A DNA stretch of 35,256 bases from a virus. Location of the stretch: UHGV virus genome UHGV-1783823; one strand, written 5' to 3'. A model generated the notes under the pieces. That model did no database searches and was not told the origin of the DNA. It saw nothing but the letters and a program-made list of their open reading frames with translations. The position numbers and the translations under genes were made by a program. This document shows, one piece after another, positions 25,786 to 33,337 of the stretch. The number at the start of each line of letters is the position of its first letter. Position 1 is the stretch's first letter.

Positions 25786-26832
25786 ATGGAGAAGTACACA
25801 TTAACAAAACTTCCCGATTCAGTTACACATGTTTTTATTGACTCTGACAGCATTGCCTATAAAGGTGCTTGTGTAGTTGAGAAAGCAAAATATAAATACG
25901 TCAATAAACTCACAGCAGAAGAATCTGAACCATTTGACAATGCGAAAGATGCTGCAAGATGGTTAGCAGACCAGAGAATCCTTGTGGAAGAACTTGGCCT
26001 GACATTTGATGAAGATGAATGGGAAAGACAGACTTGGAAAGAAGCTAAGAGTGAAAAAGAAGCTATCATGGCTACTCAACAGGTGCTTCAGGAATGGCTT
26101 AAGATTGTTGGTAAAGAAAGAACTTGGGTAGGTTATTTAACAGAGAAAGGTGTGCATAAACATAAAGACATTAAAGGTCTTGAGCACCAATATCAAGGTA
26201 ACCGTAAAGATGCTGTCACACCAACACACTTAGTCGCTTGTCGTGAATACCTTCTGTCAAGACCAGAGTTCAAACTAATTCTTGATGGATTTGAAGCCGA
26301 TTCTATCGTTATTGCTAAAGCTGAAAAGATGGGTAAAAAGGCTGCCTTGATGAGTATTGATAAAGACCTTCGCCAAGCTGAAGGGACTTACTGCATTGAT
26401 ATGACCTATGAAAAGTCGCCTTTGATTTTCATTGCTGACAACAACGTAGGTGAAATTTGGGATTGCCCAATAAAATCAACACCAAAAGCTAAGAAGACAG
26501 TTGGTGTAGGTTTTAAATTCCTTTGTTATCAAGCTGTGGCTGGTGACAATGCTGATAATTATTTTGGTTTAAAGGGTGTTGGTAAGGCTACTGTAATGAA
26601 AGCCCTTGAAGGTAAAAATACTTATAAAGAGTGTCTTGATGCTATCTATGAACTTTATGCTAAGAAAGACTCCTACACTTATGTATCATGGGATGGTCAA
26701 ACAATTACCAGAACACCTTTAGAATTAATGCAGCAACACTTTTTCTTAGCTTATCAGGAAAGAAATAAAAAAGACGATTTTACTTTTGATAAGTATGGGT
26801 GGACACCAAATGTTAACTCAACAAACTCTTAA
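25786..26832 (+). CDS. Flap endonuclease / 5-prime-3-prime exonuclease (FEN-like)
   Basis: N-terminal acidic motif VFIDSDSIAYKG; H3TH-like segment AGDNADNYFGLKGVGKATVMKAL. Confidence 0.7.
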   Translation: MEKYTLTKLPDSVTHVFIDSDSIAYKGACVVEKAKYKYVNKLTAEESEPFDNAKDAARWLADQRILVEELGLTFDEDEWERQTWKEAKSEKEAIMATQQVLQEWLKIVGKERTWVGYLTEKGVHKHKDIKGLEHQYQGNRKDAVTPTHLVACREYLLSRPEFKLILDGFEADSIVIAKAEKMGKKAALMSIDKDLRQAEGTYCIDMTYEKSPLIFIADNNVGEIWDCPIKSTPKAKKTVGVGFKFLCYQAVAGDNADNYFGLKGVGKATVMKALEGKNTYKECLDAIYELYAKKDSYTYVSWDGQTITRTPLELMQQHFFLAYQERNKKDDFTFDKYGWTPNVNSTNS

Positions 26833-27301
26833 AGAATACCTACATTATGACCCCGAAACAGGGGTCTTTACTTGGATTAAGAAATCTGCTAGACACACAA
26901 AAATTGGCTCTGTTGCAGGTACAAACTTAAGAGGGTACACCAGAATTTATTTGTTTGGTAAGGGCTATTATGCACATACCCTAGCCGTTCTGTATATGGA
27001 TGGATACCTACCTGAGTGTGTTGACCATAAAAATCATGTAACACTAGACAATCGCTGGGTAAATCTTAGGGCATGTACGTTATCAGAGAACCAATGTAAT
27101 AGGTTGCTCAATAAGAACAATAAATCAGGTGTTAAAGGTGTGTACTACAAAAAACAGTATGGTAAGTGGTCTACACAGATAACTTTTAAGAAGAGGGTCT
27201 ACTTCTTCGGCAACTATGACACTATTGATGAAGCAGCAGAGGTTGTAAATAGGGAACGTCAACGTTTACACAAAGAGTTTGCTAATAAAGGTGATGAATG
27301 A
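26810..27301 (+). CDS. HNH homing endonuclease with AP2-like DNA-binding domain
   Basis: N-terminal LKEYLHYDPETGVFTW; HNH core CVDHKNHVTLDNRWVNLRACTLSENQCN; AP2-like GVKGVYYKKQYGKWSTQITFKKRVYFFGNYDTIDEAAE; start chosen at ATG 26810 (ORF track begins at TTG 26786). Confidence 0.8.
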   Translation: MLTQQTLKEYLHYDPETGVFTWIKKSARHTKIGSVAGTNLRGYTRIYLFGKGYYAHTLAVLYMDGYLPECVDHKNHVTLDNRWVNLRACTLSENQCNRLLNKNNKSGVKGVYYKKQYGKWSTQITFKKRVYFFGNYDTIDEAAEVVNRERQRLHKEFANKGDE

Positions 27302-27798
27302 GAAAAATAAAAGGTTTTGGTAATTGCCCTGAATATGGACATTGGGTTTCACTATGTGGTGAAGTTGACCCAGCAAAGCACTTTGGTTTTGTCTACCTAG
27401 TGTACTGCAAAAAGACTGGACAGTACTATTTGGGTAAGAAACAGCTTAATAGTGTGACCAAAAGAAAAGTTGCTGGCAAGACTCGGAAGAAGGTAGTCAC
27501 TAAGGAAAGTGATTGGATGACTTATGAGACTTCTTCTGAGTATATTAAAAAAGATATTGAGAGTTTTGGAAAAGAATTTTTTGACTTTTACATTATTCAA
27601 ACCTACTACACAAAAGGTGGCCTAGTCTATGGTGAAGCAAACCTTCAACATAAATTCGATGTAATGACAAAAAGGATTGACTCGAAGCTCAGACTCTTCT
27701 ACAATGCCAATATTGCAGCAATTAAGTTTATTACTAAAGAAACTTATGAAGATGCTGAAAAAAGAATCCATAAGGTAATGAAAGCAAATTGTGCTTGA
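27298..27798 (+). CDS. Putative GIY-YIG family endonuclease
   Basis: N-terminal FGFVYLVYCKKTGQYYLGKK resembles the GIY...YIG motif pair with expected spacing; ATGA overlap with HNH gene. Confidence 0.5.
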   Translation: MRKIKGFGNCPEYGHWVSLCGEVDPAKHFGFVYLVYCKKTGQYYLGKKQLNSVTKRKVAGKTRKKVVTKESDWMTYETSSEYIKKDIESFGKEFFDFYIIQTYYTKGGLVYGEANLQHKFDVMTKRIDSKLRLFYNANIAAIKFITKETYEDAEKRIHKVMKANCA

Positions 27799-27804
27799 TA
27801 ACTA

Positions 27805-28068
27805 TTGAGAGAGAATAAAATGTTTAACAAAAGTAAAGCTGTGAGTCATGTAGCAAAGGTTGACAGCAAGATTGAAGAACTTGAGCGCATTCTTGCAAAT
27901 GCCAGAGAGTCAATAATTAAAGAAGTTGAAGCTGTTGAATCCCAAATGCAGCACCTAATGCTTAAACGTCAAGAGTTACGTGAGCATCTGGAATATATTG
28001 AAACACGAGAGCTAAAAGTTAACAGATATTTTAAGGAGTCCGAATGTTTAACTCAAGAGAATCAGTAA
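27805..28068 (+). CDS. Hypothetical coiled-coil protein
   Basis: 87 aa, charged helical sequence. Confidence 0.45.
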   Translation: MRENKMFNKSKAVSHVAKVDSKIEELERILANARESIIKEVEAVESQMQHLMLKRQELREHLEYIETRELKVNRYFKESECLTQENQ

Positions 28069-28799
28069 AAAACTGGAACCTTCGTTGTGGAAACACTCAA
28101 AAGCAACCTTACAGTAATGAGTATTGGGAATCTTTAAAATCTCAATCTCTGTGTATGCTTGAAGAAGCAAAAGAGCTTGTAAAAGCAATTGAAGAGAAAG
28201 ACCCCATTGAGACACTGGATGCTCAGGCAGATTTACAATATGTTCTTGACGGTTTGATTTACCTGTCACAACATGACCATAACGGTGCTATGGAAGCTGT
28301 TTGCCATAATAATGACCTGAAGTACACAGATGACTATGAAGAAGCTTTAAAACGTCTTGCAGACATTGAAAATCGTACTGGTCAAGAGTGTGTTATCAGA
28401 ATGTCAGTAGTTGATGGTAAAGAATGGTATGCGATTGTTCGTGCAGCCGATGGGAAGATTATGAAGCAATCAAATCTCCCTAAAGTACAGCTTGGTGAAT
28501 ACATTGTAGAACTTGAAAGCCAAGAACTTTTTGTGGTAGTATCTGAGACATGCGTTATCTGCAAAGGTATTGTAGATAGTTTAAAGAATTTGGGTGTAGA
28601 TGGTTTTGTAGAAGTTAATCCAATTACCTCTAAAGCAGATAAAGACTTCTGTAAAGAGAATGGACTATGGATTGCAGATATTATCTACTATGATGGTGAG
28701 CAGTTCCATGTAACCTCATACCCGAAACTGAATTATGATGCTAATAACCTGAAGTGTTGGTTAAAAGGGGTTGGTTATAATGGATTCACAGAACATTAA
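28044..28799 (+). CDS. MazG-like nucleotide pyrophosphohydrolase domain protein with C-terminal extension
   Basis: N-terminal LEEAKELVKAIEEKDPIETLDAQADLQYVLDGLIYL resembles the MazG EExxE...E..D helical motif; C-terminal ~150 aa unassigned. Confidence 0.4.
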   Translation: MFNSRESVKNWNLRCGNTQKQPYSNEYWESLKSQSLCMLEEAKELVKAIEEKDPIETLDAQADLQYVLDGLIYLSQHDHNGAMEAVCHNNDLKYTDDYEEALKRLADIENRTGQECVIRMSVVDGKEWYAIVRAADGKIMKQSNLPKVQLGEYIVELESQELFVVVSETCVICKGIVDSLKNLGVDGFVEVNPITSKADKDFCKENGLWIADIIYYDGEQFHVTSYPKLNYDANNLKCWLKGVGYNGFTEH

Positions 28800-29103
28800 T
28801 AAAGAGGGTGTGGCTCAGAAGAGCCACTTCTCAAACTACAATATTTCTATGACGGTGTTTATGAATGACCCGTTACTTGAAAAGTATGGTGAGACTCCAG
28901 ATACACTTCTGGATAATGAACAAGTTTTAAAAGCAGTCCTGTACAAATACGGGATTGACATTGAGAAAGAGTATTCTTTTGAAATCTGCCAACACAGGAA
29001 TACTTTCGGTAAAGTTGTGATGGCTCCGCTCTTTATGGGTGTAGAAAGGACTGACTATGGTTGGCTGTATCTGAAAAGAAACTTGGAGAAATACCGTGTT
29101 TAA
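28771..29103 (+). CDS. Hypothetical protein
   Basis: 110 aa ORF, co-oriented and overlapping neighbours. Confidence 0.45.
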   Translation: MVIMDSQNINKEGVAQKSHFSNYNISMTVFMNDPLLEKYGETPDTLLDNEQVLKAVLYKYGIDIEKEYSFEICQHRNTFGKVVMAPLFMGVERTDYGWLYLKRNLEKYRV

Positions 29104-29477: not shown

Positions 29478-31712
29478 ATGATTAAGACAATTAAAAAATC
29501 AAACGGTACAGTAGTAAGCTTTGACCCAGAAAGACTGAATAAATGGGCATCATGGGCAGATAAGCGTGGAATTATCTGGTCAGAAGTCACTATGGAAGCT
29601 ATGAAACGTGTCTATGAAGGTTGCACCACAAAAGAGATGCACCAAGCCATGATTGATGTTTGTGTTGATAAACAAACTCAAGAGTACTCAGATATGGCTG
29701 GACGGCTACTTCTGGGTATTATCTACAAAGAAGCCTTTGGAGGCTTTACTAAGGTTCCTACGCTGATTACCTTCGTTAAAAATATGGAGAGAGCAGGACT
29801 TTGGGAGAAGATGGATTATTCACAGGAAGAGCTTGAATACCTGCAAGGTTACATCGTGCACTCAAAAGATATCTCTTACGGTTATGCAGTCTTGAAACAG
29901 TTCAGAGACAAGTATGGTATCCGTGATATTAAAACTGGAAGACTTTTTGAGTCACCTCAATTTATGTTTATGGGTATGGCTATGAAAGCCTTTGAGAAGC
30001 AACCAAAGCACCGTAGACTGCAAGATGTTATCAAGCTGTACACTTACCTATCTGACCTGAAGATTAACGCTCCTACGCCTTATTTAAACGGTTTAAGAGC
30101 AACTAAATCAGGCTATGCGTCATGCTGTTTGATTAAGGCAAATGATACTGCTGAATCACTTGGTATTGCTGCAAAGATTGCTTATGACATGACTACAAAG
30201 CAAGCTGGTATTGGTATGCTGATGGAGACTCGCACTATTGGTGATGGTATCCGTCAAAATACTATTGAGCACATGGGTAAGCTACCTTATTACAAGCTTG
30301 TACGTTCATCTGTAGAGGCAAACAAACAGAAGAGTCGTGGTGGTTCAGCTAATAACTTCTACACTGCTCTAGACCCGCAGATTGAAGATTTACTGCGTTT
30401 GAAGCACCCTACAACGGTTCCTTCTAAACGTATTAATGAGATGGACTACTCATTCGGCACAAACGATTACTTCTGGCAGTGTGTTCAGTATGATACAGAT
30501 TGGTTGCTATTCTCTTACAAAGATGCACCAAAACTCTATGACATGTTCTACACAGCATCTGCTGATGAGTTTGCTATGGCAGTTGGTCACGCAGTACATT
30601 CAGGAGTTAAGCACAGACGAGTCAAGGCTCGTGAAATTGCTAAGCTGTTTATTCAACAGCGTTATGCTACAGGTCGTGTGTATCCATTCTTCACTAACAA
30701 TGCAAACACACATACACCATTTAAAGAACCATTGAAGATGTCAAATCTTTGTATGGAAATTGTATTGCCAGTGTATGGTTTTGAGAAAGAGACAGACCTT
30801 TACAGAGACGATGCTGTGAAAGAGGATGGTGAGGTGGCTCTTTGCTTCCTAGCTAGTTTGGTTGCAGGGAGAATTTCAGAAGATGAATACGCTGACGTTG
30901 CTTATTATGCTCTTGCAATGGTTGACTCCGTTATTGACCTTATGGATTATCCGTATCCGTCGATGCGTAACCATGTTCAGAAGCGTCGTTCTGTTGGGAT
31001 TGGCCTTACAAATGTGGCTCATTACCTTGCGAAGAACTATGTGAACTACTCTTCACGAGCAGGTAAAACGAAACTTCATGAACTGGCAGAGATGCACTCT
31101 TACTATCTGCATGAAGCCTCTCTGAGACTTGCTAAAGAGCGTGGCGTTCCAGAGTACATGAAGTTCACTAAGTATCCTGAAGGCTGGGTTCCTCCAAAGA
31201 CAGCTAACAAGAAGATTGATGAAAAGCATGATGCAAAACTACGATATGATTGGGATGACTTAGCACAACGTATCAAAGAAAATGGTGGAATCCGAAACTC
31301 TGTATTAGAAGCTTACATGCCTAATGAGAGTTCTTCACTAGCAACTAACACGACAAATGGCTTGTACCCAATTCGTGACTTTATTTTAACTAAAAAGTCT
31401 GCAACTGGTAACGTACTGTTTATTGTTCCAGATTATGAAGAGTTGAAGTATGTTTATGAAATTGCTTGGGATATTGACACCTTTGACATGATTGATTGTT
31501 ATGCAATTGTTCAAAAGTTCACTGGTCAAGCTATTTCTTCAGACTTCTATGTTGACTATGCAAAGTCTAAGAAGGTATCATTGGCTCAAGCTCTGAAGTA
31601 CATGATTTATGCCAACTCGGTAGGTATGAAAACCATGTACTACCTTAATAGTCGCATTGGTGTAGGTAAATCTGCACTGCAAGATGCTTATTGCGAGGGT
31701 TGTGGTGTTTAG
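29478..31712 (+). CDS. nrdA: Ribonucleotide reductase class Ia large subunit
   Basis: N-terminal ATP-cone-like region (VVSFDPERL); active-site NLCMEI; C-terminal redox Cys pair (CEGCGV); 744 aa. Confidence 0.9.
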   Translation: MIKTIKKSNGTVVSFDPERLNKWASWADKRGIIWSEVTMEAMKRVYEGCTTKEMHQAMIDVCVDKQTQEYSDMAGRLLLGIIYKEAFGGFTKVPTLITFVKNMERAGLWEKMDYSQEELEYLQGYIVHSKDISYGYAVLKQFRDKYGIRDIKTGRLFESPQFMFMGMAMKAFEKQPKHRRLQDVIKLYTYLSDLKINAPTPYLNGLRATKSGYASCCLIKANDTAESLGIAAKIAYDMTTKQAGIGMLMETRTIGDGIRQNTIEHMGKLPYYKLVRSSVEANKQKSRGGSANNFYTALDPQIEDLLRLKHPTTVPSKRINEMDYSFGTNDYFWQCVQYDTDWLLFSYKDAPKLYDMFYTASADEFAMAVGHAVHSGVKHRRVKAREIAKLFIQQRYATGRVYPFFTNNANTHTPFKEPLKMSNLCMEIVLPVYGFEKETDLYRDDAVKEDGEVALCFLASLVAGRISEDEYADVAYYALAMVDSVIDLMDYPYPSMRNHVQKRRSVGIGLTNVAHYLAKNYVNYSSRAGKTKLHELAEMHSYYLHEASLRLAKERGVPEYMKFTKYPEGWVPPKTANKKIDEKHDAKLRYDWDDLAQRIKENGGIRNSVLEAYMPNESSSLATNTTNGLYPIRDFILTKKSATGNVLFIVPDYEELKYVYEIAWDIDTFDMIDCYAIVQKFTGQAISSDFYVDYAKSKKVSLAQALKYMIYANSVGMKTMYYLNSRIGVGKSALQDAYCEGCGV

Positions 31713-31767
31713 TTTTAACAACTATGGGGGTCGTAAAAGACCCTCTAAAAATAACTTTGGAGAGACC

Positions 31768-32025
31768 ATGAAAGATTTAATAGAAAAACATGAGCGACCT
31801 ATATACTTGCTCCATAAGCCTCGGAAAACGATGTACTATGTGAGTAGCACAGACATGATGATAAAACAAAATGATGACTCATGGGTTGCTGGTATCTCTT
31901 ACATCTCTACAGCAGATGGTAAAATCTACGCAAGACCTTATGAGATGTTTAACAAAGAAAATTGGGAAGTTTTAGACAGAAAACAAGCCTTAGAAATGAT
32001 AAAGAAAGGAGAAATCACGCTATGA
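31768..32025 (+). CDS. Small protein encoded between nrdA and nrdB (85 aa)
   Basis: ATG 31768 preceded by RBS GGAGAG; stop overlaps nrdB start (ATGA); ORF track shows a longer version from 31684. Confidence 0.5.
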   Translation: MKDLIEKHERPIYLLHKPRKTMYYVSSTDMMIKQNDDSWVAGISYISTADGKIYARPYEMFNKENWEVLDRKQALEMIKKGEITL

Positions 32026-33095
32026 TTAACCAGCACCCAATCTTTTTAGGTGGTGAGAGAAAAACTTTTGACTCACTCAATAAGCACTACCCAAAAATCT
32101 TTGAACTTTATAAACAACAAAAAGCACAAGACTGGTCAGAAGATGAGTTCCCTTTTGAACAATCACGTCTTGATTTTGAGAGTGTCCCAGCATCAATGTC
32201 AGGTGTAATGCTTGAGATTCTTAAGTGGCAATGGGAAGCAGATACTCAAGTTGCTAAGAGCTTGGCATTTGCCTTTGCACCCTTTATCTCTGATGACATC
32301 TATGCAACTGCAATTATGAAGCAGTCTGAGATTGAAAACCTACATGCTCTTACTTACTCAGAGATTGTAAGACAATGTATTAAAAACCCTGAAACAATCT
32401 TAGATGAGATTAACCAGAATGTTGCTGTGCAAGACCGATTAAAAACTGTGAATCGTGTTCTTGAAGAATTACTGGATGAAGGTATAAACTACCGTCTGAG
32501 TTATGTACGTGATTCACTTCTGGACAAAGACCCTTTGCACTTCCATAAAGTGATTCTGAAAGGGCTGTTTGCAGTGACTGCACTTGAAGGCATATCTTTT
32601 ATGGCATCCTTTGCATGTACTTTTGCACTTGATGCTCAAGATAAATTTCAGGGTATTGCTCAAGCTGTCCAGAAAATTATGCTTGACGAAATCCTTCACA
32701 CTAAAATTGATATTGAAGTTTTAAAAGAAACTTTAAGAGATGATGAATGGCAGAAAGCTTTTCAACAAATTCTTCCAGAGATTAAAGTAATCTTAGATGA
32801 AGTAGTTGAAAGTGAAGAGAAATGGTCGTATTATATCTTCTCCGAAGGACGTGCTGTAGTTGGCTTGAATACAAAGCTTCTTCATGAGTGGGTTTACTAT
32901 AATGCTGCCCCACTGTATGATATGTTTGGCATTCCCAGAGATTTTGTAGCTCCTAAAGAACCACCTTTGAAGTACATGATTAAGAAGATGGAAATTGATA
33001 AAGAGCAGAATGCTAATCAGGAGCAACAGAACGGTGCGTACCTGTTGAATACTGTTGTAGATGATTTGAATAGTGGATTTTTAGAGGTTCCTTAA
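32022..33095 (+). CDS. nrdB: Ribonucleotide reductase class Ia small subunit
   Basis: Di-iron/tyrosyl-radical region ENLHALTYSEI and LEGISFMASFACTFAL...DEILH; start at ATG 32022 with RBS AAGGAG (ORF track starts upstream at 31962). Confidence 0.9.
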   Translation: MINQHPIFLGGERKTFDSLNKHYPKIFELYKQQKAQDWSEDEFPFEQSRLDFESVPASMSGVMLEILKWQWEADTQVAKSLAFAFAPFISDDIYATAIMKQSEIENLHALTYSEIVRQCIKNPETILDEINQNVAVQDRLKTVNRVLEELLDEGINYRLSYVRDSLLDKDPLHFHKVILKGLFAVTALEGISFMASFACTFALDAQDKFQGIAQAVQKIMLDEILHTKIDIEVLKETLRDDEWQKAFQQILPEIKVILDEVVESEEKWSYYIFSEGRAVVGLNTKLLHEWVYYNAAPLYDMFGIPRDFVAPKEPPLKYMIKKMEIDKEQNANQEQQNGAYLLNTVVDDLNSGFLEVP

Positions 33096-33337
33096 TGACT
33101 TATGTAATTTACTCCAAAACTGGATGCCCTCAGTGTGAGACTGCAAAGAATTTTGCAAAAGCTCGTGGTATTGACCATGTTGTGAGAATGTTAGGGCAGG
33201 ACTATGAACTATCAGACCTGATGGATATTGCACAGATGCCAGTTCGTCAGATGCCATTCATCATGAAAACTGATGGACAAAACCTAAAACCTGTTGGAAC
33301 GCTACAGAATTTTATGGCAGAGGTGAATAATGCTTAA
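33095..33337 (+). CDS. Glutaredoxin-like protein (NrdH/NrdC-type redoxin)
   Basis: CPQC active-site motif near N-terminus (YSKTGCPQCETAK); 80 aa; directly follows nrdB. Confidence 0.75.
   Translation: MTYVIYSKTGCPQCETAKNFAKARGIDHVVRMLGQDYELSDLMDIAQMPVRQMPFIMKTDGQNLKPVGTLQNFMAEVNNA

What the first reader, a model, noticed from the sequence alone, without database searches (positions are those of the whole stretch)
28044..28799. MazG-like domain fused to an unassigned C-terminal domain
The N-terminal ~100 aa carry an EExxE...E..D helical signature reminiscent of MazG-type NTP pyrophosphohydrolases. The remaining ~150 aa (Cys-containing, VICKGIVDSLKNLGVDGF...) match nothing I recognise. Phage MazG proteins are linked to nucleotide-pool control and counteracting nucleotide-based stress or defence signalling, so a fusion may add a new specificity.
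Basis: partly seen in the sequence, partly recalled or inferred. Interest (0 to 1): 0.45.

Follow-up and report, generated by a model that had tools for sequence, protein, structure and literature searches.

The report
Phage MazG-like enzyme with glutaredoxin-like tail
This Felix O1-type phage gene encodes a nucleotide-cleaving (MazG/HisE-like) enzyme joined to a small glutaredoxin-like redox domain; the gene is already annotated in hundreds of phages, but the added domain is atypical and untested.

Summary
The ORF (28044..28799, +, 251 aa) is real, has a strong ribosome-binding site and is under purifying selection. The window is a Felixounavirus. The gene sits in about 300 Ounavirinae-type genomes, where it is labelled "MazG-like pyrophosphatase" or "phosphoribosyl-ATP pyrophosphohydrolase-like" (PHROG 2144, full length).

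The MazG reading holds at the sequence-profile level. Pfam PRA-PH scores above its cut-off, and E40, E41, E44 and D63 are invariant. The MazG-like unit runs to about aa 155, not about 100: Grx-less relatives of 134-213 aa end there.

The domain is atypical. The cis-proline position holds Ala, Gly or Ser, and there are no glutathione or NrdH motifs. A canonical glutaredoxin lies separately after nrdB.

The order MazG-Grx, small ORF, nrdA, nrdB, grx is conserved in all 31 full-length loci examined.

My best reading is a dNTP-pool pyrophosphatase of the phage's deoxynucleotide module with a tethered redox-sensing or docking domain. Substrate and redox role are inferred, not shown. I rate it a new variant of a known kind, of modest interest.

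The parts
28033..28038 (+). Shine-Dalgarno AAGGAG, 5 nt upstream of the ATG. It lies inside the 3' end of the upstream ORF 27805..28068, so the two genes overlap by 25 nt.
   Evidence: Read directly.
28044..28799 (+). Whole gene: MazG/HisE-like NTP pyrophosphohydrolase fused to a glutaredoxin-like domain (251 aa plus stop).
   Evidence: ORF. PHROG 2144 matches full length at E 1.4e-100. Found in 305 phage records. Under purifying selection.
28044..28328 (+). All-alpha MazG/HisE-like core (aa 1-95). Acidic metal-binding residues E40, E41, E44 and D63 are invariant, D59 is nearly invariant, and E56 is variable. It also carries the conserved block H79, V86, C87, N89, N90, K93.
   Evidence: Pfam PRA-PH on aa 26-85, 26.7 bits against a 21.3-bit cut-off. 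Invariant columns. Helices 4-14, 25-50, 54-75 and 79-91 in the AF2 model. HisE 1yvw alignment.
28329..28439 (+). Insert within the MazG-like unit (aa 96-132): one helix (98-112) and a beta-hairpin (116-133). It is the least conserved segment (mean pairwise identity 0.35) and is absent from the ~134-aa bacterial relatives.
   Evidence: Also covered by phrog_671 and phrog_37824.
28440..28499 (+). Conserved basic tail of the MazG-like unit (aa 133-152), carrying R133, D136, K138, K141 and P146. It is shared with Grx-less relatives. A role in binding the triphosphate is inferred.
   Evidence: Invariant columns. Alignment with P0035-P0040 and P0074.
28500..28523 (+). Low-confidence linker (aa 153-160) between the two domains.
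   Evidence: Mean pLDDT is 55 for residues 151-160 and the whole-model pTM is 0.46.
28524..28778 (+). Glutaredoxin-like thioredoxin-fold domain (aa 161-245) with b-a-b-a-b-b-a topology.
28551..28562 (+). Invariant C170-V-I-C173 (CxxC) at the N-terminus of helix 171-182.
   Evidence: Codons TGC GTT ATC TGC read. Invariant in 22 of 22 family clusters, while the two middle residues vary (VI, II, AI, EI, SM, FI, TQ, SL, PI, TL, TK).
28674..28676 (+). Codon of A211, the position where thioredoxin-fold redox proteins carry the cis-proline just before strand 3. It is Ala, Gly or Ser in every family member.
   Evidence: The window's own free-standing glutaredoxin keeps the proline (QMPFI).
28780..29103 (+). 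Small downstream gene (107 aa, phrog_4007) that overlaps the 3' end of the MazG-Grx gene by 20 nt. It is always adjacent and has a homologue next to a Grx-less MazG-like gene and RNR in an unrelated phage contig.
29478..31712 (+). nrdA, class Ia ribonucleotide reductase large subunit (conserved neighbour).
31962..33095 (+). nrdB, ribonucleotide reductase small subunit (conserved neighbour).
33095..33337 (+). Free-standing canonical glutaredoxin (CPQC and the cis-Pro motif MPF), directly after nrdB.
   Evidence: Translation. Pfam Glutaredoxin 30.5 bits. phrog_22.

Best explanation
The gene encodes a two-module enzyme of the phage's deoxynucleotide-supply block. Module 1 (aa 1-~155) is a Mg2+-dependent all-alpha MazG/HisE-type nucleoside-triphosphate pyrophosphohydrolase. 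E40, E41, E44, D59 and D63 would hold the metal ions. K93, R133, K138 and K141 would hold the triphosphate. The reaction would be (d)NTP -> (d)NMP + PPi. The genome has thymidylate synthase, DHFR, dNMP kinase and two ribonucleotide reductases but no annotated dUTPase or dC deaminase. I therefore think the most likely job is pool cleaning and supply: dUTP and/or dCTP, or damaged dNTPs, converted to monophosphates. This would be analogous to gp56 in the T4 dNTP-synthesising complex. Module 2 (aa 161-245) is a glutaredoxin-like thioredoxin-fold domain on a flexible linker with an invariant CxxC. It lacks the cis-proline and the glutathione-binding motifs, and a canonical glutaredoxin is encoded separately beside nrdB. 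I therefore think it is more likely a thiol-based sensor or docking module than a general reductant. It would couple the pyrophosphatase to the redox state of the cell or to the reductase complex. Shown here: the ORF, its conservation, both domain identities, the invariant residues and the synteny. Inferred: catalytic activity, substrate, and any redox or docking role. My rough confidences are 0.9 for the domain identities, 0.6 for an NTP pyrophosphatase acting in dNTP metabolism, and 0.35 for a regulatory or docking role of the Grx-like domain.
For: Profile evidence for the MazG/HisE unit:
- Pfam PRA-PH is above its cut-off in the window protein and in 20 of 22 family members. Pfam MazG hits 7 of 22.
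- The best PDB hit of the family profile is HisE 1yvw, with EExxE and D63 in register.
- E40, E41, E44, D63, N89, N90, K93, R133, K138 and K141 are invariant across members down to 34% identity.
- Grx-less relatives (P0035-P0040, P0074) end at about aa 155, which defines the catalytic unit.

Evidence for the Grx-like domain:
- The C-terminal AF2 model has pLDDT 87.8.
- The Erwinia phage orthologue's domain passes the Pfam Glutaredoxin cut-off (25.3 against 22.9 bits) and hits phrog_22 'thioredoxin domain'.
- The CxxC is invariant in 22 of 22 clusters.
- The linker has low pLDDT.

Evidence from context and selection:
- The order exonuclease ... MazG-Grx, small ORF, nrdA, nrdB, grx is kept in 31 of 31 full-length loci, including 38%-identity Kolesnikvirus.
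- A Grx-less relative sits next to ThyX and RNR in an unrelated phage contig.
- No dUTPase or deaminase is annotated in the reference genome.
- Both halves are under purifying selection.
Against: - No enzymatic data exist for any member.
- Structure searches with the whole model returned only generic helical bundles for the N-terminal part and no MazG structure in the top 50-60 hits.
- The ExxD glutamate (E56) is not invariant, and the HisE alignment puts A60 at the canonical Glu position.
- 'No annotated dUTPase' is weak evidence in a genome where most genes are hypothetical.
- The window protein's own C-terminal domain gives no Pfam hit. Its family assignment rests on fold and on orthologues.
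- The sensor or docking role is pure inference. The inter-domain geometry is not predicted with confidence (pTM 0.46).
Confidence: 0.55

Rival explanations
1. The Grx-like domain is a working disulfide reductant dedicated to the phage class Ia ribonucleotide reductase. It would be delivered in cis on a neighbouring nucleotide-metabolism enzyme, in the way the glutaredoxin domain fused to NrdB of Facklamia ignava reduces its own RNR.
For: - The gene lies two small genes upstream of nrdA-nrdB in every locus.
- The CxxC is invariant and in the canonical position.
- A Grx-RNR fusion that acts as an RNR reductant has been demonstrated (PMC6187632).
Against: - A canonical glutaredoxin (CPQC, cis-Pro present) is already encoded directly after nrdB in all loci.
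- The fused domain lacks the cis-proline, which is more conserved across thioredoxin-fold groups than the CxxC itself (PMC2757866).
- It also lacks the glutathione-site and NrdH signature motifs.
- Grx-less relatives of the MazG-like unit also sit next to RNR, so the synteny is explained by the MazG part alone.
Confidence: 0.2
2. The CxxC is a metal or iron-sulfur ligand rather than a redox dithiol. With no cis-proline, two CxxC pairs brought together by the MazG-type dimer could bind a bridging [2Fe-2S] cluster or Zn. This would make the pyrophosphatase responsive to oxygen, iron or oxidative stress.
For: - Ala, Gly or Ser occupies the cis-Pro position in all members.
- The cis-proline has been proposed to preclude metal binding by the CxxC (Su et al. 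2007, as cited in PMC2757866).
- P75S/T/A in human TRX1 is enough for [2Fe-2S] incorporation into homodimers (PMC6210436).
- MazG/HisE-type enzymes are obligate dimers or higher oligomers (established knowledge).
Against: - No coordinates were available to test whether the two CxxC motifs can meet.
- No additional invariant Cys or His lies in the domain. C203 is lost in Kolesnikvirus and Yersinia-phage members, and C87 is Ser in P0034.
- This is an argument from absence only.
Confidence: 0.1
3. The enzyme is a counter-defence or host-takeover factor that destroys a signalling nucleotide rather than a DNA precursor. The target could be (p)ppGpp, as for the phage MazG-like Atd1 and the cyanophage MazG, or another alarmone or immune nucleotide.
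For: - The phage MazG-like Atd1 hydrolyses ppGpp and protects against TIR-STING toxicity (bioRxiv 10.1101/2022.06.09.495361).
- The orthologue in Felixounavirus P10 acquired mutations in a co-evolution experiment, and the authors discuss it as possible counter-defence (PMC13155118).
Against: - Atd1 comes from a Certrevirus (Vequintavirinae), and nothing here links it to PHROG 2144.
- This gene is a fixed, syntenic core gene embedded between the replication and RNR genes, not in a variable island.
- The P10 mutations (nt 725 and an 18-bp insertion at nt 734 of 756) fall in the overlap with, and the ribosome-binding region of, the downstream gene. They need not concern MazG function.
Confidence: 0.14
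4. It is a true HisE (phosphoribosyl-ATP pyrophosphohydrolase of histidine biosynthesis), as many GenBank records name it.
For: The best Pfam family is PRA-PH and the best PDB hit is HisE 1yvw.
Against: - No other histidine-biosynthesis gene is present in the phage genome.
- PF01503 also covers generic MazG-like NTP pyrophosphatases, and 7 of 22 members also hit Pfam MazG.
- The scores are marginal and typical of superfamily-level similarity.
Confidence: 0.01

Closest known systems
All-alpha NTP pyrophosphohydrolases of the MazG/HisE (Pfam PF01503 PRA-PH / PF03819 MazG) superfamily, e.g. Bacillus cereus HisE (PDB 1yvw) and the ~134-aa 'nucleoside triphosphate pyrophosphohydrolase family' proteins of Alphaproteobacteria (P0040, P0074)
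   Same: Both have a helical core with EExxE and a downstream Asp, an NxxK block, and a C-terminal R..D.K..K tail.
   Different: This protein has a 37-aa helix-plus-hairpin insert (aa 96-132) and a whole extra glutaredoxin-like domain. The canonical ExxD glutamate is not conserved. Sequence similarity to solved structures is marginal (E 0.0075).
PHROG 2144 / RefSeq 'MazG-like pyrophosphatase' of Ounavirinae (e.g. YP_009147377.1 of phage vB_EcoM-VpaE1)
   Same: It is the same protein: 98.8% identity, the same length and the same neighbours.
   Different: Nothing differs in sequence. The existing annotations name only the N-terminal domain. One record's note (Hafnia phage SPARTY) also mentions a disulfide-oxidoreductase hit.
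Small dithiol glutaredoxins / NrdH-redoxins / phage T4 NrdC-type redoxins (PDB 7c10, 1h75; Pfam PF00462)
   Same: Both have a four-stranded b-a-b-a-b-b-a thioredoxin fold of about 75-85 aa with a CxxC at the start of helix 1. The domain is encoded next to ribonucleotide reductase.
   Different: There is no cis-proline before strand 3 and no TVP/GG glutathione site or NrdH WSGFRP motif. The window copy is below the Pfam threshold. The domain is fused to another enzyme instead of standing alone.
Glutaredoxin domain fused to NrdB in Facklamia ignava (PMC6187632)
   Same: A glutaredoxin-type domain is fused to an enzyme of deoxynucleotide synthesis.
   Different: There the partner is the RNR radical subunit and the Grx is canonical and proven to reduce RNR. 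Here the partner is a pyrophosphatase, the domain is atypical, and a separate canonical Grx exists.
Phage MazG-like Atd1 (Pectobacterium phage PcCB7V) and cyanophage MazG
   Same: They are phage-encoded MazG-superfamily pyrophosphatases.
   Different: They belong to a different phage lineage and a different family. They are single-domain proteins located in an anti-defence neighbourhood, with a demonstrated ppGpp substrate. No such evidence exists here.

Membership tests
All-alpha NTP pyrophosphohydrolase superfamily (MazG/HisE; Pfam PF01503, PF03819) | Significant match to the family profile at or above the curated cut-off | tested here: met
   PRA-PH scores 26.7 bits against a 21.3-bit cut-off, E 7.7e-6. 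20 of 22 family members hit PRA-PH (best E 1.8e-9) and 7 of 22 hit MazG (best E 3.9e-6).
All-alpha NTP pyrophosphohydrolase superfamily (MazG/HisE; Pfam PF01503, PF03819) | Acidic metal-binding motif EExxE ... ExxD on two adjacent helices | tested here: met
   E40, E41, E44 and D63 are invariant and D59 is nearly invariant. Caveat: E56 varies, and the HisE alignment places A60 at the canonical Glu position, so the second half is DxxxD rather than ExxD.
All-alpha NTP pyrophosphohydrolase superfamily (MazG/HisE; Pfam PF01503, PF03819) | Four-helix, all-alpha fold similar to solved MazG, HisE or dimeric dUTPase structures | tested here: inconclusive
All-alpha NTP pyrophosphohydrolase superfamily (MazG/HisE; Pfam PF01503, PF03819) | Mg2+-dependent hydrolysis of the alpha-beta bond of an NTP or dNTP | not testable with these tools
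   This needs an enzyme assay.
HisE proper (phosphoribosyl-ATP pyrophosphohydrolase of histidine biosynthesis) | Genomic or functional association with the his pathway | tested here: not met
   No his gene is annotated in the 88-kb reference genome. The neighbours are replication and RNR genes.
Glutaredoxin family (Pfam PF00462) within the thioredoxin fold | Thioredoxin/glutaredoxin fold (b-a-b-a-b-b-a) | tested here: met
Glutaredoxin family (Pfam PF00462) within the thioredoxin fold | CxxC (or CxxS) active site at the N-terminus of helix 1 | tested here: met
   C170 and C173 are invariant in 22 of 22 clusters. Helix 171-182 starts at the motif.
Glutaredoxin family (Pfam PF00462) within the thioredoxin fold | Profile match above the curated cut-off | tested here: inconclusive
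   The window domain alone gives no Pfam hit. The Erwinia phage orthologue's domain scores 25.3 bits against a 22.9-bit cut-off. 3 of 22 members hit at E <= 0.01. hhalign against the window's own Grx aligns CxxC with CPQC, but with probability only 11.7%.
Glutaredoxin family (Pfam PF00462) within the thioredoxin fold | cis-Proline immediately before strand 3 | tested here: not met
   Position 211 is Ala, Gly or Ser in all 22 members. The free-standing phage Grx in the same window keeps it (MPF).
Glutaredoxin family (Pfam PF00462) within the thioredoxin fold | Glutathione-binding residues (TVP, GG-x-dD) and glutathione-dependent activity | tested here: not met
   The motifs are absent on reading the alignment. 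The motif definitions come from my own knowledge of the family. Activity is not testable here.
NrdH-redoxin | C-V/M-Q-C active site plus the WSGFRP motif, encoded with class Ib nrdEF | tested here: not met
Atd1-type phage MazG ((p)ppGpp hydrolase, anti-TIR defence) | Homology to Atd1, location among anti-defence genes, and ppGpp hydrolysis | not tested
The context here is nucleotide metabolism. Activity is untestable here.

The most novel reading that the evidence does not exclude
The proline-less CxxC thioredoxin-fold domain is a metal or [2Fe-2S] sensor. The cluster or metal would be bridged between the two subunits of the MazG-type dimer. It would switch a phage dNTP pyrophosphatase on or off according to oxygen, iron or oxidative stress. 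This would let the phage tune dNTP-pool cleaning to whether its aerobic (NrdAB) or anaerobic (NrdDG) reductase is in use. It would be a redox-gated house-cleaning enzyme, a kind not described for MazG proteins.
Probability: 0.08. Interest if true: 0.65.

Novelty: new variant of a known kind. Interest (0 to 1): 0.33.

Why it matters
Felix O1-type phages are widely used for Salmonella and E. coli typing and biocontrol, yet this conserved core gene is labelled only by its first domain. Recognising a redox-type domain on a nucleotide pyrophosphatase, beside two ribonucleotide reductases and a separate glutaredoxin, gives a concrete and cheap hypothesis to test: that phage dNTP-pool sanitation is coupled to thiol or metal redox state, or to the reductase complex. 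If the proline-less CxxC binds a cluster or metal, it would be a natural example of what has so far been seen mainly in engineered thioredoxin mutants. If the domain is just a second reductant or a docking handle, the result is a modest refinement of annotation for about 300 genomes.

Tried and rejected
- Sequence searches of the full protein and of the family profile against PDB gave nothing significant for the whole protein. Only the N-terminal profile reached HisE, at E 0.0075.
- Foldseek with the two-domain model gave thioredoxin-fold hits at probability ~1 but E > 0.001, so I re-modelled the C-terminal domain alone.
- Pfam on the window's C-terminal and middle segments alone gave no hits. 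BLASTP against the window's own glutaredoxin gave no alignment.
- An exhaustive profile search with the C-terminal domain found only six clusters, all with the same ~250-aa architecture. The four other hits (P0024-P0027) are long repeat proteins that match through a repeated 'NQDFC..ADIQVNE..WYD' unit, and I rejected them as false positives.
- I looked for a Rosetta-stone case, meaning a Grx-less MazG-like gene next to a separate small redoxin. None was found in L006-L009. The adjacent small ORFs have no CxxC.
- Literature searches for MazG plus glutaredoxin or thioredoxin fusions, or for this gene in Felix O1-type phages, found no description.
- I considered that mutations in the phage P10 orthologue point to function. 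I rejected this as ambiguous, because they fall in the overlap with the downstream gene.
- I considered a role in the phage NAD-salvage genes (PRPP synthetase, Nampt). There is no adjacency and no evidence, so I did not pursue it.
Full report
**What the window is and whether the feature is there**

The window is a Felix O1-type myovirus (genus Felixounavirus). A 5-kb stretch around the feature is 95-97% identical at DNA level to many Felixounavirus genomes.

AAGGAG lies at 28033-28038, five bases upstream of the ATG. The upstream gene overlaps it by 25 nt. The downstream gene starts with an ATG at 28780 and overlaps it by 20 nt, which is a translationally coupled arrangement.

The protein is found by tblastn in 305 phage records, and 302 of them cover at least 80% of it. 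All are 80-90-kb myoviruses of Enterobacterales:
- Felixounavirus, Mooglevirus and Suspvirus types at 74-99% identity;
- Erwinia and Hafnia Kolesnikvirus at about 38%;
- a Yersinia phage at about 43%.

Against orthologues of 75-80% identity, dN/dS is 0.09-0.11 for aa 1-158 and 0.16-0.27 for aa 159-251. Both halves are therefore maintained by selection.

**The N-terminal part**

E56-x-x-D59 ... D63. The profile evidence is as follows.
- Pfam PRA-PH (PF01503) matches aa 26-85 with 26.7 bits, above the curated cut-off of 21.3 (E 7.7e-6).
- Across 22 family clusters, 20 hit PRA-PH (best E 1.8e-9) and 7 hit Pfam MazG PF03819 (best E 3.9e-6).
- A profile of the N-terminal 158 residues finds Bacillus HisE (1yvw) as its best PDB sequence, E 0.0075, with EExxE and D63 in register.

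The invariant residues down to 34% identity are E40, E41, E44, D63, H79, V86, N89, N90, K93, R133, K138, K141 and P146.

A second database search with the family profile found shorter relatives without the C-terminal domain. These are P0035-P0039 (154-213 aa) and many ~134-aa alphaproteobacterial 'nucleoside triphosphate pyrophosphohydrolase family' proteins. They align through the R133/D136/K138/K141 segment and end near residue 155.

So the catalytic unit is about 155 residues, not about 100. It contains a poorly conserved insert (aa 96-132: a helix plus a beta-hairpin) that the bacterial relatives lack.

The protein is not a true HisE, because the phage has no other histidine-pathway gene.

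**The 'unassigned' C-terminal part**

The full-length AlphaFold model (pLDDT 78.9) shows a low-confidence linker at residues ~151-160. After it comes strand-helix-strand-helix-strand-strand-helix (162-242), with C170-x-x-C173 at the start of the first helix.

The window copy alone gives no Pfam hit. The orthologous domain of Erwinia phage phiEa104 passes the Pfam Glutaredoxin cut-off (25.3 against 22.9 bits, E 1.8e-5). It also hits phrog_22 'thioredoxin domain', the same PHROG as the window's free-standing glutaredoxin.

The CxxC is invariant in all 22 clusters, while the two middle residues vary freely (VI, II, AI, EI, SM, FI, TQ, SL, PI, TL, TK).

An exhaustive profile search of 1.8 billion representatives with this domain found it only in proteins of this same ~250-aa architecture. 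The few other hits were repeat proteins, which I rejected.

The fusion is not new to the databases. PHROG 2144 covers the whole length. The GenBank note on the Hafnia phage SPARTY orthologue already cites a 'Protein Disulfide Oxidoreductases...' hit. I found no paper that describes it.

**How the redox-like domain departs from its family**

The position just before strand 3 holds a cis-proline in glutaredoxins, thioredoxins and NrdH. In every member of this family it is Ala, Gly or Ser (A211 in the window).

[quoted passage not shown] Replacing it with Ser, Thr or Ala in human TRX1 is enough for a [2Fe-2S] cluster to be built into homodimers (PMC6210436).

The glutathione-site motifs and the NrdH signature are also absent on reading the alignment. 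The motif definitions come from my own knowledge.

By contrast, the window encodes a canonical glutaredoxin directly after nrdB (33095..33337). It has CPQC, a retained proline (MPF) and a Pfam Glutaredoxin score of 30.5 bits.

**Context**

In the annotated reference VpaE1 the local gene order is:
- dNMP kinase;
- primase/helicase;
- exonuclease;
- homing endonuclease(s);
- a small ORF;
- MazG-Grx;
- two small ORFs;
- nrdA;
- a small ORF;
- nrdB;
- glutaredoxin;
- nrdD.

Thymidylate synthase, DHFR, nrdG, PRPP synthetase and Nampt lie elsewhere in the genome. No dUTPase or dC deaminase is annotated.

In 31 of 31 full-length loci from IMG/VR, including the 38%-identity Kolesnikvirus loci, the order MazG-Grx, small ORF, nrdA, nrdB, grx is kept. 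A Grx-less relative (P0039) in an unrelated metagenomic phage lies directly upstream of ThyX, a homologue of the same small ORF, and RNR.

The catalytic unit is therefore a stable member of the deoxynucleotide-synthesis neighbourhood, with or without the extra domain.

**Most likely mechanism**

Shown: the two domain identities, the invariant residues, the linker, the synteny and the selection.

Inferred: the N-terminal unit hydrolyses (d)NTPs to (d)NMP + PPi with Mg2+ held by E40, E41, E44, D59 and D63, and with the triphosphate held by K93, R133, K138 and K141.

- The company it keeps, and the lack of an annotated dUTPase, point to dUTP, dCTP or damaged dNTPs as the most likely substrates. 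Its role would be like that of the dCTPase-dUTPase in the T4 dNTP-synthesising complex (the analogy is from established knowledge and is not tested).
- The appended domain is tethered, keeps a CxxC, lacks the features of a general glutaredoxin, and coexists with a canonical one. I therefore favour a thiol-based regulatory or docking role, sensing redox state or binding the reductase complex.

**Rivals**

- A dedicated RNR reductant, as in the Facklamia Grx-NrdB fusion (PMC6187632). The extra canonical Grx and the missing proline weaken this.
- A metal or Fe-S site formed by two CxxC pairs in the dimer. The missing proline is suggestive, but I had no coordinates to test it.
- A hydrolase of a signalling nucleotide such as (p)ppGpp, as shown for the unrelated phage MazG-like Atd1. 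Against this, the gene has a fixed position in the nucleotide-metabolism block, and Atd1 comes from a different phage subfamily.
- True HisE, which I reject.

The mutations reported in the orthologue of phage P10 are G242V at nt 725 and an 18-bp insertion at nt 734 of 756. They lie in the ribosome-binding and start region of the overlapping downstream gene, so they say little about MazG function.

**Verdict**

The MazG-like call is supported by profiles. The link to defence signalling has no support here.

The gene is already annotated in hundreds of genomes, so it is not a discovery of a new protein. The architecture, a MazG-type pyrophosphatase carrying a proline-less CxxC thioredoxin-fold domain, is uncharacterised and restricted to Ounavirinae-type phages. 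It is best described as a new variant of a known kind. Interest is modest at 0.33. The most novel reading still allowed is a metal- or redox-gated dNTP pyrophosphatase, with probability about 0.08.

Noticed in passing
window 28780..29103 (+); L006:6129-6449: The 107-aa gene overlapping the 3' end of the MazG-Grx gene (phrog_4007) also hits phrog_3506, which is dubiously labelled 'thymidylate synthase'. It has a homologue (BLASTP E 3e-8, motif L.A.L...G.D..K......C.H) between ThyX and the RNR large subunit in an unrelated metagenomic phage, one gene downstream of a Grx-less MazG-like gene. It is thus a conserved, unnamed companion of MazG-like genes and RNR. It has no Pfam hit.
   Followed up: partly
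window 27298..27798 (+): Many records label this gene 'NAD synthetase' (phrog_447). It actually matches Pfam SegE_GIY-YIG (PF19835) at E 8.9e-27 and homing-endonuclease PHROGs. The label is a propagated mis-annotation of a GIY-YIG homing endonuclease.
   Followed up: yes
window 26786..27798 (+); loci L010-L038: The distance between the exonuclease gene and the MazG-Grx gene takes two values among otherwise ~97%-identical genomes. The exonuclease match ends about 1.2 kb or about 0.74 kb upstream. This fits a presence/absence polymorphism of one of the two homing-endonuclease genes (HNH at 26786..27301, GIY-YIG at 27298..27798).
   Followed up: no
window 28768..28780 (nt 725-737 of the gene): The mutations reported in the orthologue of Felixounavirus P10 during co-evolution (PMC13155118, supplement) are G242V at nt 725 and an 18-bp insertion at nt 734. 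The reverse complement of the insertion repeats ATAATGGATTCACAGAAC, the start of the downstream gene. They fall in the overlap and ribosome-binding region of that gene, so they may act on it rather than on MazG.
   Followed up: partly
window 28044..28799, N-terminal versus C-terminal part: Synonymous divergence from 75-80% orthologues is about twice as high in codons 1-158 (dS 1.5-1.75) as in codons 159-251 (dS 0.66-0.78). The 20-nt overlap with the next gene is too short to explain this. Possible causes are recombination within the gene or extra constraint on the 3' part. It remains unexplained.
   Followed up: no
window 31684..32025 (+): A 113-aa ORF (phrog_2652, unknown function) overlaps the end of nrdA and the start of nrdB. 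It is annotated as a gene in the reference genome.
   Followed up: no
reference genome NC_027337.1 (L004, L005): The Felixounavirus genome encodes PRPP synthetase and nicotinamide phosphoribosyltransferase (NAD salvage) plus ThyA, DHFR, dNMP kinase, NrdAB and NrdDG. It has no annotated dUTPase, dCMP/dCTP deaminase or NMN adenylyltransferase.
   Followed up: no
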